This document shows positions 172-2,204 of a stretch of DNA of 2,204 nucleotides, piece by piece. This DNA comes from Escherichia coli (lineage in GTDB: Bacteria > Pseudomonadota > Gammaproteobacteria > Enterobacterales > Enterobacteriaceae). Below the pieces are notes generated by a model. The model did not search any database and was not told the origin of the DNA. It worked only from the letters and a program-made list of their open reading frames with translations. The stretch lies in assembly GCF_003334335.1 (NCBI RefSeq), contig NZ_QOWQ01000093.1, one strand, 5' to 3'. Numbering within the stretch: position 1 is the stretch's first letter; every line of letters starts with the position of its first letter. A program made the translations under genes and the position numbers.

Positions 172-867
172 TCATGCTGCGGTAGCTCTCCATGCAGCAA
201 GCAGACCAGCAATCCACTCAACACCTTTTGGGGTGAATTTAACCTGCGTAAAAGCATGACCATTGCCCGCCTCGCCCGTTTTCACGCTAAACCGCCCCGC
301 ATCCAGGTGATGCGAGTAAGGCGTCATTTTTCCAGCGAGGCGATACATTATTCCGTTCTCCAACAAAAACAGCCGGAAATCGGTTTCTTTGATACCGAGT
401 AACTTAGCAACTTCCCGGAATCCCATCAGACCAGATGCTTCAACATAGTTATCAACAAATTCAGCCTTCGGCGCTGCTATTGCCAGTTGATTTTCCAGCA
501 CTGCTTTCTGTTCAGCCAGTTTTGCCGCAAATCGCAACGCCTCAGGTAAAGTCCGGGGGATCTGAATACCATGCATCGCTTTGAGTCTTGCCAGCACAGA
601 ACGACGAACGGCCTTTGACTCCCTCATGCCAACGAGCATCATCTGGTCAAAATCCAGATCATAGTATGCCGTTCTTGTCTGGTTATTGTTTAACCGGAAT
701 TTTTTTCCGGTTCCATCAAGCTCTAGCTCATCCTCAATTTTTGCAAGAAACTTACGCGGTTCATGAGGGACTTCTCCGGCTTCTGCCCGGGCTGGATTAA
801 TAATGTTATTCAGAAAATCCAGACTACTCATGGATATTTCATGATCGACAGAAATCATCTCTTTCAT
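172..867 (-). CDS. Phage regulatory protein / antirepressor, Rha-like N-terminal domain plus KilA-C (ANT) C-terminal domain, 231 aa
   Basis: Complete ORF in the supplied track. Shine-Dalgarno AAGGA sits 7 nt upstream of ATG 867-865 (minus strand reads AAAAGGAATCAACC-ATG). The C-terminal half (LPEALRFAAKLAEQ...APKAEFVDNYVEASGLMGFREVAKLLGIKETDFRLFLLENGIMYR...GRFSVKTGEAGNGHAFTQVKFTPKGVEWIAGLL) matches my recollection of the KilA-C/ANT antirepressor domain. The N-terminal half (KFLAKIEDELE...YYDLDFDQMMLVGMRESKAVRRSVLARLKAM) resembles the Rha-family N-terminal domain. Both assignments are from memory, not a search. Confidence 0.85.
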   Translation of the reverse strand: MKEMISVDHEISMSSLDFLNNIINPARAEAGEVPHEPRKFLAKIEDELELDGTGKKFRLNNNQTRTAYYDLDFDQMMLVGMRESKAVRRSVLARLKAMHGIQIPRTLPEALRFAAKLAEQKAVLENQLAIAAPKAEFVDNYVEASGLMGFREVAKLLGIKETDFRLFLLENGIMYRLAGKMTPYSHHLDAGRFSVKTGEAGNGHAFTQVKFTPKGVEWIAGLLAAWRATAA

Positions 868-1013
868 GGTTGATTCCTTTTAGTGATGAACCCTGCGCAC
901 AGGAATAACCAGCCCAAAGAGGGTTAACCAGACCACTGCCGGTTATCCACCAGGGCTCATCCTGAAAGGTTCTTTGGTTTATTTACGCTTGTGCGAAGCG
1001 CAGAAATGACAAA

Positions 1014-1030
1014 GGCACCATTACGGTGCC
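1014..1030 (-). terminator. Small hairpin GGCACC-N5-GGTGCC; on the minus strand it is followed by TTTGTCATTTCT. Weak candidate terminator or RNA stability element downstream of the endolysin
   Basis: Seen directly: 6-bp perfect inverted repeat with a 5-nt loop, 110 nt downstream of the endolysin stop, with a T-rich but interrupted tail on the minus strand. The stem is short, so termination efficiency is doubtful. Confidence 0.25.
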
Positions 1031-1140
1031 TCTGCGTGAAATAATGTTCCTGACTTTATTCACTTACATTTTGCCAGCTCGCAGGATTTCGTGTTATCCG
1101 CCCGCGTTGGCCAACGTCATTTTTCAGCAAAATATTCTGC

Positions 1141-1674
1141 TTATCTGTCGATTCCCCAGCACGCCAGCGCGCTCTCCTGGTCTCGCCGGGATACCTGACC
1201 GTAACAGTTATTTGAGCGAATACGGCAGTCCCTGCCACCGTCCTTAATCCACCAGCGAATCGCTTCGCAGGCACCTTTTCGATCACCAGCATTAATTCGT
1301 CTGTAAAACGTCGACGGGAAACACTTACCGGGACCAATGTTGTACGGACAGAATGACGCGATCCCCGCTTTCTGGGGTTCGGTCAGCGGCACTCTGATGT
1401 TTTTCTCCACCCACGCCAGCGCTTTATCACGCTCAATGGCGTTAACCTGGTCGCATTTTTCCTTCGACAACTTCATGCCGGGGACGACAGGCTTACCATC
1501 CACCCGGGTGGCACCACGGCAGATGGTCCAGATACCTGCACCATCACGGTATGCCGTGGTGTGGTTACCTTCCTTTTCATCCAGAAACTGGTCGAGAATT
1601 TCAGGCGCAGAAGCCCCTGCGGCAATCAGCGCCAGAACGGCAGCCGACAGGCCGTATTTGATTTTTGCGTTCAT
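1141..1674 (-). CDS. SAR endolysin (phage-21 R-type lysozyme, T4-lysozyme-like muramidase), 177 aa
   Basis: Complete ORF. The N-terminus YGLSAAVLALIAAGASA is the Gly/Ala-rich weakly hydrophobic signal-anchor-release segment typical of SAR endolysins. The catalytic motif E-x8-D-x5-T is present at Glu35, Asp44 and Thr50 (EGNHTTAYRDGAGIWT), the same spacing as T4 lysozyme E11/D20/T26 and as I recall for phage 21 R. The whole protein closely resembles, from memory, the lysozymes of E. coli cryptic lambdoid prophages (RrrQ/RrrD type); this is not verified. Confidence 0.95.
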   Translation of the reverse strand: MNAKIKYGLSAAVLALIAAGASAPEILDQFLDEKEGNHTTAYRDGAGIWTICRGATRVDGKPVVPGMKLSKEKCDQVNAIERDKALAWVEKNIRVPLTEPQKAGIASFCPYNIGPGKCFPSTFYRRINAGDRKGACEAIRWWIKDGGRDCRIRSNNCYGQVSRRDQESALACWGIDR

Positions 1675-1731
1675 GGATATTTATCAGGATTTATCGGTTC
1701 CGAATCCCTGGATATGTTAAGCCTTCACCCC

Positions 1732-1750
1732 GCCAGTGGTGGGCACTGGC
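1732..1750. promoter_or_regulatory. Perfect 7-bp inverted repeat GCCAGTG-gtggg-CACTGGC in the intergenic region between the endolysin start and the + strand ORF; candidate operator or RNA hairpin
   Basis: Seen directly. Centred about 45 nt upstream of ATG 1786. No T-run on either side, so it is not a terminator. No convincing sigma-70 -35/-10 pair could be placed nearby by eye. Confidence 0.3.
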
Positions 1751-1785
1751 CAGGGTATGTCAATCTGATAAACACAGAGGTGACT

Positions 1786-2046
1786 ATGGATTATCCAAAT
1801 CTACCAAAACAAACTTTTGCTGATTTAATCGCACTCAGGCAAGCAGTCGTAGCTCTAATCAACGTGTTGCCGGATGAGGAAAAGGAATTAGTTAAAGCAA
1901 TTCTTAACAGAACTGCCGCCGATTTTTCATCATTCCCACTGACAGATGACCTTGCGGACCTTCCTGAATTAATTGCAGCGTCCGCCATTAAGCTTACTGA
2001 AGAGATTTACTCTCCTCAAAAGCCTTCACAAAATTCCTGCGAGTAA
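1786..2046 (+). CDS. Hypothetical small acidic protein, 86 aa (MDYPNLPKQTFADLIALRQAVVALINVLPDEEKELVKAILNRTAADFSSFPLTDDLADLPELIAASAIKLTEEIYSPQKPSQNSCE); moron-like gene on the strand opposite the lysis genes
   Basis: An internal ATG of the 161-aa + strand ORF in the track. Shine-Dalgarno GAGG at 1777-1780 lies 5 nt before ATG 1786 (AGAGGTGACT-ATG). Codon first positions are G-rich, consistent with real coding. The ORF is AT-rich: I counted about 109 G+C in 261 nt (about 42%), against roughly 50-63% in the endolysin stretches I counted. A strong intrinsic terminator follows 20 nt after the stop. The 5' extension of the track ORF (1561-1785) is antisense to the endolysin and lacks a ribosome-binding site, so the 1786 start is preferred. 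No family could be assigned from memory. Confidence 0.55.
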   Translation: MDYPNLPKQTFADLIALRQAVVALINVLPDEEKELVKAILNRTAADFSSFPLTDDLADLPELIAASAIKLTEEIYSPQKPSQNSCE

Positions 2047-2204
2047 CTTCAATGCAATAATCGTAAAACGCCGCGAACTGCTCATCGCGGCGTTTTTCTT
2101 CAGGCCGCTGAAGATGCTCTTTCAACCGTGAAGCGCAGCTTAGATGCGCCGCGCGATCAAGAATAGTTTCTTTCATTTCATCTGCTGCAAGCACCTCATT
2201 TTTT
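1994..2204 (-). CDS. Partial CDS, C-terminal part only (frame is open to the window end; true start lies beyond 2204). Hydrophilic, highly charged tail ...AADEMKETILDRAAHLSCASRLKEHLQRPEEKRRDEQFAAFYDYCIEVTRRNFVKAFEESKSLQ; function unknown
   Basis: The track start at 2194 is a GTG; codons 2195-2203 continue without a stop (K-N-E), so the gene probably starts outside the window. Codon first positions are strongly G-biased and codon usage is E. coli-like, which supports real coding. Its last 17 codons overlap the 3' end of the + strand ORF (1994-2046) and it reads through the terminator hairpin, which lowers confidence. It is not obviously a holin: no hydrophobic segment is visible. Confidence 0.45.
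   Translation of the reverse strand, partial: KNEVLAADEMKETILDRAAHLSCASRLKEHLQRPEEKRRDEQFAAFYDYCIEVTRRNFVKAFEESKSLQ
2065..2097 (+). terminator. Rho-independent terminator: 12-bp stem (AAAACGCCGCGA / TCGCGGCGTTTT, 8 GC-rich core pairs) with 8-nt loop ACTGCTCA, followed by TTTTTCTT
   Basis: Seen directly, 20 nt downstream of the stop of the + strand ORF. An A-run precedes the stem, so the minus-strand transcript also gets a short U-run (possibly bidirectional). It lies inside the reading frame of the minus-strand partial ORF 1994..2204. Confidence 0.6.

What the first reader, a model, noticed from the sequence alone, without database searches (positions are those of the whole stretch)
1728..1785. 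Perfect 7-bp inverted repeat in the leader between the divergent endolysin and moron starts
GCCAGTG-N5-CACTGGC is a perfect palindrome in the roughly 110-nt region separating the divergently oriented endolysin and moron starts. It is a plausible binding site for a dimeric regulator controlling the moron, or an RNA hairpin in the endolysin 5' leader. I could not place a convincing sigma-70 promoter by eye, so the regulatory logic is open.
Basis: seen in the sequence. Interest (0 to 1): 0.3.

Follow-up and report, generated by a model that had tools for sequence, protein, structure and literature searches.

The report
Conserved hairpin in prophage moron leader
The small palindrome is real and is one stem of a conserved promoter-plus-RNA-leader cassette that many E. 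coli, Salmonella and related prophages use to express a swappable small gene running backwards inside their late genes. It is a regulatory RNA element absent from Rfam, not a repressor binding site.

Summary
The repeat GCCAGTG-N5-CACTGGC is at 1732-1738/1744-1750, in the 111-nt gap between the endolysin start (1674, - strand) and an 86-aa opposite-strand ORF (1786). Alone it is only mildly unusual (P about 0.04). Comparison decides the matter. The same stem lies upstream of at least 21 unrelated small "reverse" ORFs in prophages of Escherichia, Salmonella, Enterobacter, Citrobacter, Pseudocitrobacter and Pantoea. It occurs in four different late-operon positions, including HK97 gp23, annotated "reverse moron product". 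Across 71 distinct sequences the stem is 98% paired, with compensatory changes. G·U pairs number 55 on the + strand against 1 on the - strand. So the folded molecule is RNA of the moron's sense. It is not a double-stranded operator and not the endolysin leader. A TAnnnT -10 hexamer lies 12-14 nt upstream of the stem in all haplotypes, including 43 retrieved without using it. In the window this gives TTTATC-N17-TATGTT and a predicted start near 1725. The hairpin is therefore 5'-proximal and, with flanking pairs, buries the 5' end. I read it as a stabilising or structural stem of a portable moron promoter-leader. This function is inferred, not shown. The window is a diverged member that lacks the family's second hairpin. 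No Rfam family matches.

The parts
1690..1695 (+). Putative -35 hexamer TTTATC of the moron promoter
   Evidence: Best + strand sigma-70 PWM candidate in the gap (7.6 bits, top 0.1% of window positions). The -35 is weak across the family. Predicted, not mapped.
1713..1718 (+). Putative -10 hexamer TATGTT
   Evidence: The same position is TAnnnT in all 86 distinct haplotypes. It is also TAnnnT in 43 haplotypes retrieved with a pattern that did not include it. Locus L469 has an unrelated upstream sequence with TTGCAT-N17-TAATTT at the same distance from the stem.
1684..1711 (.). Invariant inverted repeat TCAGG (1684-1688) / CCTGG (1707-1711) overlapping the predicted promoter spacer
   Evidence: 99.7% paired but never varies in alignment A2, so covariation is uninformative. 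Its role is unexplained.
1725..1730 (+). Predicted transcription start (about 1725-1727) and 5' box TCACCC (family consensus TCAGCC)
   Evidence: It lies 7-9 nt downstream of the -10 hexamer. The box is invariant TCAGCC in most of the family. In the window ACCC (1727-1730) pairs with GGGU (1753-1756) in the minimum-energy fold. Inferred; no 5'-end data.
1732..1750 (+). The reported inverted repeat, which is helix P2 of the leader RNA. Arms 1732-1738 and 1744-1750, loop 1739-1743.
   Evidence: for the window. for family covariation and strand. Covariance model R1 matches window 1713-1772 on the + strand only (25.5 bits, E about 9e-6).
1759..1784 (+). Second predicted hairpin, whose 3' arm holds the Shine-Dalgarno GAGGTG (1777-1782)
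   Evidence: Minimum-energy and centroid fold of 1725-1800: -27.7 kcal/mol, z = -2.7, 1 of 200 shuffles as stable. It is specific to this cargo type. It replaces the family's P3 hairpin (loop GGGAUGGCUGAUUA), which the window lacks.
1786..2046 (+). Cargo ORF, 86 aa (phrog_2572, function unknown)
   Evidence: It is annotated 'DUF1823 containing protein' in phage PhiR5_1, but the Pfam match is weak (E 0.04). There is no PADLOC match.
2065..2096 (.). 12-bp G+C-rich hairpin flanked by A-run and T-run: bidirectional intrinsic-terminator-like site ending the cargo transcript
   Evidence: I1: AAAACGCCGCGA / TCGCGGCGTTTT. It starts 19 nt after the cargo stop codon and lies inside the - strand ydfR-long ORF.
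1994..2204 (-). 3' part of the ydfR-long (DUF1327) late gene, convergent with and overlapping the cargo ORF
   Evidence: The first 113 aa match YdfR (phrog_406). The C-terminal extension reads antisense through the cassette.
1141..1674 (-). Endolysin R (lysozyme), divergent from the cargo ORF
   Evidence: phrog_7 endolysin, E 6e-64.

Best explanation
The inverted repeat is helix P2 of a portable promoter-plus-leader cassette. This cassette drives a small 'reverse moron' embedded antisense in the late operon of lambdoid prophages.

In the window, a weak sigma-70 promoter (TTTATC 1690-1695, 17 nt, TATGTT 1713-1718) is predicted to start transcription at about 1725-1727 on the + strand. The first 30 nt of that RNA fold into the 7-bp G+C-rich stem-loop 1732-1750. 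Pairs ACCC (1727-1730) / GGGU (1753-1756) extend it, so the 5' end of the moron mRNA is buried in a helix.

I propose that this 5'-proximal stem-loop protects the transcript from 5'-end-dependent decay and sets a steady low expression of the cargo gene in the lysogen. During lytic growth, Q-antiterminated late transcription runs antisense through the cassette and would damp it.

What is shown: the repeat exists, it is conserved, the stem covaries, and the + strand is the folded strand. What is inferred: the promoter and start site, the stabilising role, and the lysogen/lytic logic.
For: Family and context
- The same stem, with 30-60 nt of flanking homology, precedes at least 21 BLASTP-unrelated small ORFs (median 82 aa) in 314 loci.
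- It occurs in four genomic positions: between ydfR and R (the window); between tail genes I and J (HK97 gp23 'reverse moron product', HK022 gp23, mEp506); between M and L (ES18 gp25, Oslo); and after Rz (mEp213).
- It is also found in Enterobacter, Citrobacter, Pseudocitrobacter and Pantoea genomes.

Structure
- On 71 distinct sequences P2 is 98.2% paired.
- One pair shows UA, CG and UG states. Another shows UG, CG and UA states.
- No shuffle out of 500 reaches the observed covariation. Slid controls pair at only 35-43%.
- Pantoea has GCCTGCG/CGCAGGC, two fully compensated pairs.

Strand
- G·U cells number 55 on the + strand against 1 on the - strand in P2.
- Pairing is 98.2% on the + strand and 88.7% on the - strand.
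- RNAalifold energy is -15.0 for the + strand and -10.7 for the reverse complement.

Promoter
- This is the best PWM site in the gap.
- TAnnnT lies 12-14 nt upstream of the stem in every haplotype, including 43 retrieved independently of it.
- L469 has swapped the upstream DNA for TTGCAT-N17-TAATTT at the same spot.
- In tail-gene contexts a terminator hairpin for the neighbouring gene sits about 70-75 nt upstream of the stem, so the promoter must lie within the conserved element.

5' end burial
- Predicted leaders of the window, HK97 and the unrelated-sequence L005 type all pair the first 1-3 nt into or next to the hairpin.

Membership
- Model R1, built without the window, hits window 1713-1772 on the + strand at 25.5 bits, E about 9e-6, with no - strand hit.

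Constraint within the window's own subfamily
- Arm diversity is 0.07, against 0.23-0.26 at neutral sites.

Analogy
- In phage phi80 a reverse defence gene inside the Q operon is expressed in the lysogen and reduced when Q is induced (PMC11364771).
Against: - There are no transcript 5'-end, half-life or expression data for any member.
- The promoter is weak by consensus (4-7.6 bits) and was missed by the standard scan.
- Within the lysis-cassette subfamily that includes the window, stem variants are all one-sided. Four are tolerated only on the - strand, three only on the + strand, and three break both.
- The commonest orf6-type allele (24 loci) has a C·A mismatch inside the stem.
- The window lacks the family's P3 hairpin and has TCACCC instead of the TCAGCC box, so it is an atypical member.
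- Some copies of this cargo gene have lost the start codon or part of the Shine-Dalgarno. The cassette may therefore be decaying in some prophages.
- Part of the TAnnnT invariance is by construction of three of the search patterns. Only searches are unbiased for it.
- If transcription starts upstream of 1684, the hairpin is internal rather than 5'-proximal, and the stabiliser role weakens.
Confidence: 0.55

Rival explanations
1. P2 is an RNA hairpin in the moron leader, but its job is to be bound by a protein rather than to protect the 5' end. Candidates are the host translational repressor CsrA or a phage-encoded factor made late.
For: - In most of the family the P2 loop is GUGGGA.
- The P3 loop is GGGAUGGCUGAUUA.
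- The Shine-Dalgarno is UAAGGAA.
- That gives three GGA motifs 20-30 nt apart.
- From my own knowledge, the CsrA SELEX core is ARGGAUG presented in hairpin loops.
- Loop bases are more conserved than a pure stability element needs.
Against: - The window's loop is GUGGG (no GGA).
- It has no P3.
- Its Shine-Dalgarno is GAGGUG. So the CsrA version does not apply to this copy.
- No binding data exist.
- A YdfR/DUF1327 protein is detectable next to only 87 of 224 leader-bearing loci, so no phage protein is universally linked.
Confidence: 0.17
2. The repeat has no function in this window. It is a hitch-hiking remnant at a recombination junction of a hypervariable slot, kept because it lies in the homology that mediates cassette exchange.
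For: - Seven or more different cassettes diverge right after the right arm.
- Relative to prophages with ydfR abutting R, the window carries a 566-bp segment bounded by 6-bp direct repeats YGGTGG. One of these lies in the hairpin loop.
- In the window's subfamily all stem changes are one-sided.
- The cargo gene is degenerating in some copies.
Against: - The arms are about 4-fold less diverse than the 11 nt next to them and than synonymous sites.
- Compensatory changes and strand-specific G·U pairs occur across genera.
- An unrelated-sequence hairpin sits at the same place in the L005/L010 cassette type.
Confidence: 0.12
3. The hairpin acts on the - strand, in the late mRNA between ydfR-long and the endolysin gene. 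It might serve as a processing barrier or a 5' protector of the R message.
For: - In the window the - strand hairpin is the more stable one: -17.0 against -13.6 kcal/mol, z -2.3.
- It lies 57 nt upstream of the R start.
- Four one-sided variants in the lysis-cassette subfamily are G·U on the - strand.
Against: - Across the family 55 P2 cells would be C·A mismatches on the - strand, against 1 on the + strand.
- The element sits before J, L and other genes, not only R.
- Prophages with the same R gene and no cassette lack the hairpin.
- The covariance model finds no - strand hit.
Confidence: 0.08
4. The palindrome is a double-stranded DNA operator for a dimeric regulator of the moron.
For: - It is a perfect 19-bp dyad in the window, centred about +16 relative to the predicted start. 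That is a position where roadblock repressors act.
- Compensatory changes also preserve dyad symmetry.
Against: - The majority family allele GTCAGTG/CACTGGC is not symmetric, because T faces G.
- Arm spacing varies from 5 to 7 bp.
- There is a single copy per locus and essentially none elsewhere in the prophages: 71 at this locus against 1 elsewhere in 1.9 Mb.
- No regulator gene is consistently linked.
Confidence: 0.06

Closest known systems
Morons of HK97/HK022 (Juhala et al. 2000, from my own knowledge; GenBank NC_002167 annotates gp22 'moron product' and gp23 'reverse moron product')
   Same: Both have an extra gene with its own predicted promoter and a downstream intrinsic terminator, inserted between essential late genes. 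The HK97 gp23 upstream region carries the same P2 stem and flank as the window (88% identity over 49 nt) and scores 61.8 bits with model R1.
   Different: The cargo proteins are unrelated. The records annotate terminators but nothing at the leader. I found no paper in the held library that describes a shared leader. Juhala 2000 itself could not be read.
5'-terminal stabilising stem-loops of bacterial mRNAs (ompA 5' UTR hairpin; Emory, Bouvet and Belasco 1992; my own knowledge)
   Same: Both are G+C-rich hairpins within a few nucleotides of the predicted 5' end, with the 5'-most bases paired. This is the proposed way the element works.
   Different: The start site and any effect on decay are untested here. 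The family also conserves loop bases and a second hairpin, which a pure stabiliser would not need.
Noncontiguous operon of the Tai/Ati defence and counter-defence genes in phage phi80 (PMC11364771)
   Same: A gene on the opposite strand interrupts the Q-dependent late operon. In phi80 it is expressed in the lysogen and reduced when Q is induced. The geometry matches the window's.
   Different: The phi80 region gave no match to the leader. The cargo ORFs here have no PADLOC match. No defence role is shown.
CsrA-controlled leaders (GGA motifs in hairpin loops and over the Shine-Dalgarno; my own knowledge)
   Same: Most family members have GGA in the P2 loop, in the P3 loop and in the Shine-Dalgarno.
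   Different: The window copy has none of the three. The resemblance is by motif only.
Lambdoid repressor operators
   Same: Both are short dyad-symmetric DNA near a promoter. The 9-mer GCCAGTGGT also occurs in lambda OL1 (my own knowledge).
   Different: The family shows asymmetric T·G states and variable spacing, there is a single copy, and a 2-nt offset from the OL1 half-site spacing applies. I treat the 9-mer as coincidence.
Prophage anti-sRNAs / Pas sRNAs (AgvB, AsxR, PasA-D)
   Same: These are also small structured RNAs encoded in the late region of lambdoid prophages of pathogenic E. coli.
   Different: They lie upstream of the holin gene, between the esterase gene and S, or 3' of stx. 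They do not lie between ydfR and R. There is no Rfam match here.

Membership tests
Reverse-moron promoter-leader family defined here (alignments A2/A3, model R1) | 8-bp (7 + 1) G+C-rich stem P2 with a 5-7 nt loop, on the strand of the cargo ORF | tested here: met
   Window 1732-1750 has a perfect 7 bp. It aligns to P2 in the cmsearch hit at 1713-1772 +.
Reverse-moron promoter-leader family defined here (alignments A2/A3, model R1) | TAnnnT hexamer 12-14 nt upstream of the stem | tested here: met
   TATGTT at 1713-1718, 13 nt before G1732.
Reverse-moron promoter-leader family defined here (alignments A2/A3, model R1) | 5' box TCAGCC immediately before the stem | tested here: inconclusive
   The window has TCACCC (1725-1730), one change from consensus. 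Cassette types with TCACCC have GGG after the stem instead of a downstream GGCTGA.
Reverse-moron promoter-leader family defined here (alignments A2/A3, model R1) | P3 hairpin GAGG...CCUC with loop GGGAUGGCUGAUUA before the Shine-Dalgarno | tested here: not met
   Absent from the window. A different hairpin (1759-1784) takes its place. The window is therefore a partial or diverged member.
Reverse-moron promoter-leader family defined here (alignments A2/A3, model R1) | Significant covariance-model score on the cargo strand only | tested here: met
   25.5 bits, E about 9e-6 (rough calibration), + strand. There is no - strand hit up to E 10. Full members score 51-62 bits.
Reverse-moron promoter-leader family defined here (alignments A2/A3, model R1) | Followed within about 35-60 nt by a small ORF with a Shine-Dalgarno, antisense to flanking late genes | tested here: met
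   GAGGTG at 1777-1782 and ATG at 1786, 86 aa. The flanking genes R and ydfR-long are on the - strand.
Moron (promoter + gene + terminator, absent from related phages) | Gene absent from otherwise homologous phages | tested here: met
   Prophages L003 and L006 have S-ydfR-R with no insert. The window has 566 bp extra.
Moron (promoter + gene + terminator, absent from related phages) | Factor-independent terminator downstream | tested here: met
   12-bp hairpin 2065-2096 followed by TTTTTCTTC.
Moron (promoter + gene + terminator, absent from related phages) | Own promoter, expression from the prophage | not testable with these tools
   Only a predicted promoter is available. There are no transcript data.
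Intrinsic terminator | G+C-rich hairpin followed by a U-run | tested here: not met
   There is no T-run after the stem on either strand in the window: CAGGGTATG on +, GGGGTGAAGG on -. Orf6-type alleles do have GTTTTTCC on +.
Palindromic operator of a dimeric DNA-binding regulator | Dyad symmetry kept in relatives, fixed half-site spacing | tested here: not met
   The majority allele is asymmetric (T opposite G). Spacing is 5, 6 or 7 bp.
Any Rfam 15 family | Match to a curated covariance model | tested here: not met
   There was no hit overlapping 1675-1785 at E up to 10 in the window. There were no hits at E up to 1 in seven family loci.
5'-terminal stabilising stem-loop | Hairpin within about 0-4 unpaired nt of the mRNA 5' end | tested here: inconclusive
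   With the predicted start at 1725-1727 the fold leaves 0-2 nt unpaired. The start site is not mapped.
5'-terminal stabilising stem-loop | Removal shortens mRNA half-life | not testable with these tools
   Needs experiment.
CsrA-regulated leader | GGA in a hairpin loop plus GGA overlapping the Shine-Dalgarno | tested here: not met
   The window loop is GUGGG and the Shine-Dalgarno is GAGGUG. The feature is met in most other family members.
Noncontiguous operon | Opposite-strand gene interrupting a co-transcribed operon | tested here: met
   In PhiR5_1 the order is S, DUF1327, [reverse ORF], R..., Rz, terminase, all but the reverse ORF on one strand. Mutual regulation was not tested.

The most novel reading that the evidence does not exclude
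The hairpin belongs to an undescribed cis-regulatory RNA family. The family is a self-contained promoter plus a three-part leader: a 5' box, P2, and P3 with an invariant loop that is complementary to the 5' box, possibly forming a pseudoknot.

Enterobacterial temperate phages would use it as a universal, exchangeable expression and control platform for hypervariable lysogen-expressed cargo genes, possibly defence or exclusion genes. These genes are inserted antisense in late operons.

The conserved leader on one side and a conserved about 50-nt block on the other would act as homology arms for cassette swapping. The leader would also impose common post-transcriptional control (CsrA, or antisense late transcription) on all cargos.
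Probability: 0.3. Interest if true: 0.7.

Novelty: new member of a known kind. Interest (0 to 1): 0.5.

Why it matters
Accessory genes carried by prophages (morons) shape host fitness, virulence and phage resistance, yet how they are expressed is rarely known.

- This element offers a sequence handle, covariance model R1, for finding a whole class of small, unannotated, fast-swapping prophage genes. At least 21 unrelated families appeared in the sample, and nothing is annotated at the leader in any record examined.
- It predicts where their transcripts start.
- It suggests that one shared leader controls many different cargos.
- It occurs in about 200 of 5,426 complete E. coli genomes for the window's allele and about 200 for the main type, including Shiga-toxin phages.
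- For this window specifically, it turns an "open regulatory logic" into a testable promoter, start site and stem.

Tried and rejected
1. Intrinsic terminator. There is no U-run on either strand in the window.

2. Known RNA family. Rfam gave no relevant hit.

3. Known prophage sRNAs (AgvB, AsxR, Pas). They map upstream of the holin or 3' of stx, not here.

4. "Relic of the ydfR 3' end". I first read the left arm as leftover YdfR codons (..PPLA*), since a - strand frame reads ..QCPPLAG*. No long ORF ends there. Once the leader was found in tail-gene contexts the direction reversed: the tail of the short ydfR in L003-type prophages is derived from the leader by a deletion between CCACC repeats.

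5. - strand promoter using the perfect TTGACA at 1763-1758. Its -10 (ACCACT) is poor, and the TTGACA belongs to this cargo's own upstream sequence.

6. sigma-E-like and LexA-like matches seen by eye. The spacings are wrong, so I did not pursue them.

7. YdfR/DUF1327 as a universally linked partner that might bind the leader. It was detected by phmmer next to only 87 of 224 leader-bearing loci. HK97 gp22 resembles YdfR only weakly (E 0.012).

8. Homology among cargo ORFs. BLASTP finds none between families.

9. Defence annotation. There are no convincing PADLOC hits.

10. Reference strains for public start-site data. K-12 Qin and Sakai Sp5 lack the leader.

11. Literature. Searches for a prior description of the leader found nothing in the held library.

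12. Lambda OL1 9-mer identity. I judged it coincidental.

Full report
**What is in the window**

The 2204-nt window is the lysis region of a lambdoid prophage. It is 99.5% identical to Escherichia phage PhiR5_1. In that record the late genes run S (holin), a DUF1327 protein, R (lysozyme), several small ORFs, Rz and terminase on one strand. A single ORF lies on the other strand between the DUF1327 gene and R.

In window coordinates:
- R is 1141..1674 on the - strand (phrog_7 endolysin, E 6e-64).
- An Ant-like ORF is 172..867 on the - strand.
- The 3' part of the DUF1327 gene ends at 1994 on the - strand.
- The opposite-strand ORF is 1786..2046, 86 aa (phrog_2572, unknown function; Pfam DUF1823 only at E 0.04).
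- A 12-bp hairpin with flanking A and T runs at 2065-2096 follows it.

**The observation**

GCCAGTG-N5-CACTGGC is at 1732-1738/1744-1750, perfectly complementary, in the 111-nt gap between the two divergent starts. In shuffles of that gap a perfect 7-bp repeat with a 3-8 nt loop turns up 4% of the time, and a G+C-rich one 1%. It is real but not compelling alone. The standard promoter and terminator scan finds nothing in the gap, and Rfam finds nothing.

**First comparisons**

Homology searches in E. coli genomes and phages show that similarity to the region upstream of R stops at a few discrete points. One of them is exactly the end of the right arm (1750), as in Stx2 phage 86.

Collecting 127 and then 131 loci from IMG/VR through the conserved R-proximal sequence showed that the hairpin is followed by at least seven unrelated + strand ORFs (BLASTP finds no similarity). 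Prophages in which ydfR abuts R have no hairpin. Relative to those, the window carries 566 extra bp bounded by YGGTGG repeats.

Within this subfamily:
- The arms are far less variable (diversity 0.07) than the adjacent 11 nt (0.23) and than R third codon positions (0.26; P about 4e-5).
- Every stem variant is one-sided and the strand evidence is mixed.
- The motif occurs 71 times at this locus and once elsewhere in 1.9 Mb of these prophages.
- The 86-aa ORF is always found with the hairpin.

**The lead that resolved it**

A sensitive search of phage genomes with 1675-1760 hit HK97 at 15028-15076. That site lies just upstream of gp23, annotated "reverse moron product". gp23 is convergent with gp22 ("moron product") and lies between tail genes I and J.

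Using the HK97 and consensus versions as queries found the same element in several other phages:
- HK022 (gp23), mEp506, mEp213, mEp043 and HK633.
- Salmonella phages ES18 (gp25, "possible moron"), Oslo, 29485, SPN3UB, FSL SP-016 and SW-37.

Two further IMG/VR scans and one scan of species-representative genomes added about 180 loci. They also added Enterobacter, Citrobacter, Pseudocitrobacter and Pantoea hosts. The element always precedes a small ORF that runs against the neighbouring late genes. A rough clustering gives 21 unrelated cargo families in 314 loci, median 82 aa. Nothing is annotated over the element in any record, and Rfam has no match.

**Structure and strand**

On alignment A2 (72 sequences, 71 distinct) RNAalifold predicts the reported repeat as an 8-bp helix, which I call P2. 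Counting on 71 distinct rows gives the following:
- 98.2% of P2 cells are paired.
- One pair shows UA (60), CG (6) and UG (3).
- Another pair shows UG (43), CG (13) and UA (11).
- No shuffle out of 500 reaches the observed covariation score or the number of double changes.
- Sliding the partners by 1-3 columns drops pairing to 35-43%.
- A downstream hairpin P3 (GAGG...CCUC around an almost invariant loop GGGAUGGCUGAUUA) has five pairs with changes on both sides.

The Pantoea copy has GCCTGCG/CGCAGGC, two fully compensated pairs relative to the window.

The strand test is decisive:
- G·U cells are 55 on the + strand against 1 on the - strand in P2, and 40 against 10 in P3.
- P2 pairing is 98.2% on + and 88.7% on -.
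- The reverse-complement alignment folds worse.

T·G states keep RNA pairing on the cargo strand, but they break both DNA dyad symmetry and - strand pairing. This argues for an RNA helix in the cargo transcript. It argues against an operator and against an endolysin-leader hairpin.

**Promoter and start site (inferred)**

A position-weight scan of the window gives TTTATC (1690-1695), 17 nt, TATGTT (1713-1718) as the best + strand site in the gap (7.6 bits, top 0.1% of positions).

Across the family the homologous hexamer is TAAGGT, TAATGT, TAAAGT, TAACGT, TATGTT, TATGGT, TACTAT, TAACTT or TAATTT. That is TAnnnT, always 12-14 nt before the stem. Three of my search patterns forced part of this. 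However, 43 haplotypes retrieved through P2-P3 alone and the BLAST-found phages keep it too.

In locus L469 the upstream DNA is unrelated, yet it supplies TTGCAT-N17-TAATTT at the same distance. In tail-gene contexts a terminator hairpin for the neighbouring gene lies about 70-75 nt upstream of the stem, which confines any promoter to the element. The -35 is generally weak.

The start would fall on the conserved TCAGCC box (window TCACCC, 1725-1730). Folding the predicted leaders gives:
- Window: ACCC (1727-1730) pairs with GGGU (1753-1756) around P2, leaving 2 nt free. Energy is -27.7 kcal/mol, z -2.7.
- HK97: UCAGCC pairs with GGCUGA of the P3 loop.
- L005/L010 cassette type: the stem sequence is unrelated (GCCUG/CAGGC), but the 5' end is again buried.

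I therefore take P2 to be a 5'-proximal stem-loop. By analogy with ompA-type 5' hairpins (my own knowledge), it would protect the message.

**Membership of the window**

A covariance model built from 87 family sequences, not including the window, gave the following:

| Locus | Score |
|---|---|
| HK97 | 61.8 bits |
| Three lysis-cassette types | 51-56 bits |
| Window 1713-1772, + strand | 25.5 bits, E about 9e-6 |
| L004 type | 25 bits |
| L017 type | 17.8 bits |
| Cassette-free L003/L006, hairpin-analogue L005/L010 | no hit |

The window keeps the -10, a variant 5' box and P2, but lacks P3. A cargo-specific hairpin (1759-1784) holds the Shine-Dalgarno instead. It is a diverged, partial member.

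**How it probably works**

In the lysogen the weak promoter would give a steady transcript whose 5' end is locked by P2. The cargo ORF is translated and the transcript ends at the 2065-2096 hairpin.

After induction, Q-modified polymerase reads S, ydfR-long, the antisense of the cassette, and R. Head-on transcription and antisense RNA would reduce cargo expression. This was reported for the phi80 taiEcA gene in a "noncontiguous operon" (PMC11364771). That is an analogy only, because phi80 lacks this leader.

The stabiliser role is the step I hold least firmly. The conserved loops and three GGA motifs in most members suggest a protein partner such as CsrA, but the window copy has none of those motifs.

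**Limits**

- There are no expression data.
- Covariation controls can be exceeded by related sequences without structure (a caveat stated by the tool).
- My ORF calling for the cargo census is crude.
- E-values from the short calibration are rough.
- Juhala et al. 2000 and the ES18 genome paper were not available, so a prior remark on this shared upstream sequence cannot be excluded. Searches of the held library found none.

**Verdict**

It is an RNA stem on the moron strand within a conserved, portable promoter-leader that is absent from Rfam. It is not an operator and not part of the endolysin leader. Interest is moderate (0.5). I rate it a new member of a known kind.

Noticed in passing
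window 1684-1688 and 1707-1711: Inverted repeat TCAGG ... CCTGG, invariant across 71 family sequences and overlapping the predicted promoter spacer. It never varies, so it could be a protein site on DNA, or an RNA helix if transcription starts further upstream. L469 and the Pantoea copy lack it.
   Followed up: partly
family loci, e.g. L289:5528-5594, L271:1524-1575 (no counterpart in the window): The two most conserved blocks of the leader are UCAGCC at the predicted 5' end and GGCUGA in the P3 loop. They are perfectly complementary, which suggests a pseudoknot or an alternative fold. Both are invariant, so covariation cannot test it. The window has TCACCC plus GGGT right after the stem instead.
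   Followed up: partly
window 1994-2204 (- strand) and L001:5994-6629: The 211-aa 'DUF1327' protein is a YdfR domain (first 113 aa) fused in frame to sequence that reads antisense through the cassette, including its terminator hairpin. The part after ..KTPP resembles the N-terminus (MTLEQRVEALEK..) of a separate small forward ORF that flanks the variable cassette in other phages.
   Followed up: partly
window 2065-2096: A 12-bp perfect hairpin with an A-run before and a T-run after. It looks terminator-like in both directions, lies inside the late-strand ORF, and was not picked up by the simple terminator scan.
   Followed up: no
window 1675-1711 (- strand reading): The endolysin has no recognisable Shine-Dalgarno within 15 nt of its ATG. 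Its leader is highly conserved and folds into a hairpin (CAGGGAUU...AAAUCCUG). The protein's N-terminus (MNAKIKYGLSAAVLALIAAGASAPE) looks like a signal-anchor-release (SAR) type endolysin, from my own knowledge.
   Followed up: no
window 1010-1034: Hairpin GGCACC-N5-GGTGCC in the 273-nt non-coding gap between R and the Ant-like gene, followed on the - strand by TTTGTCATTT. It is a possible terminator or processing site within the late operon.
   Followed up: no
L245-L251, L254 and L135-type loci; L175, L244, L248: In many copies of this cargo gene the start codon is ACG instead of ATG, and in others one G of the Shine-Dalgarno is deleted. This suggests decay of the gene in some prophages while the hairpin is kept.
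   Followed up: no
L002:3870-3900 (Stx2 phage 86) and 24 similar loci: The orf6-type allele has a C·A mismatch inside the stem, a 6-nt loop and GTTTTTCC right after it. This looks like an intrinsic terminator on the cargo strand just after the predicted start, which would be a possible attenuator.
   Followed up: no
L005:1586-1610, L010 and about 45 loci: A different cassette type keeps the same -10 hexamer and has a hairpin of unrelated sequence (GCCTG-N6-CAGGC) at the same distance. The covariance model does not detect it.
   Followed up: partly
L288:301-381 and 4425-4506; SPN3UB (two places): Some phages carry two copies of the leader in one genome, each before a different small ORF.
   Followed up: no
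L003:1536-1600 and about 21 loci: In prophages where ydfR abuts R, the last codons and stop of ydfR (..PPLA*) are encoded by the antisense of the leader's 5' box and left stem arm. This fits a deletion between CCACC repeats that removed the cassette but left the predicted promoter pointing into ydfR.
   Followed up: partly
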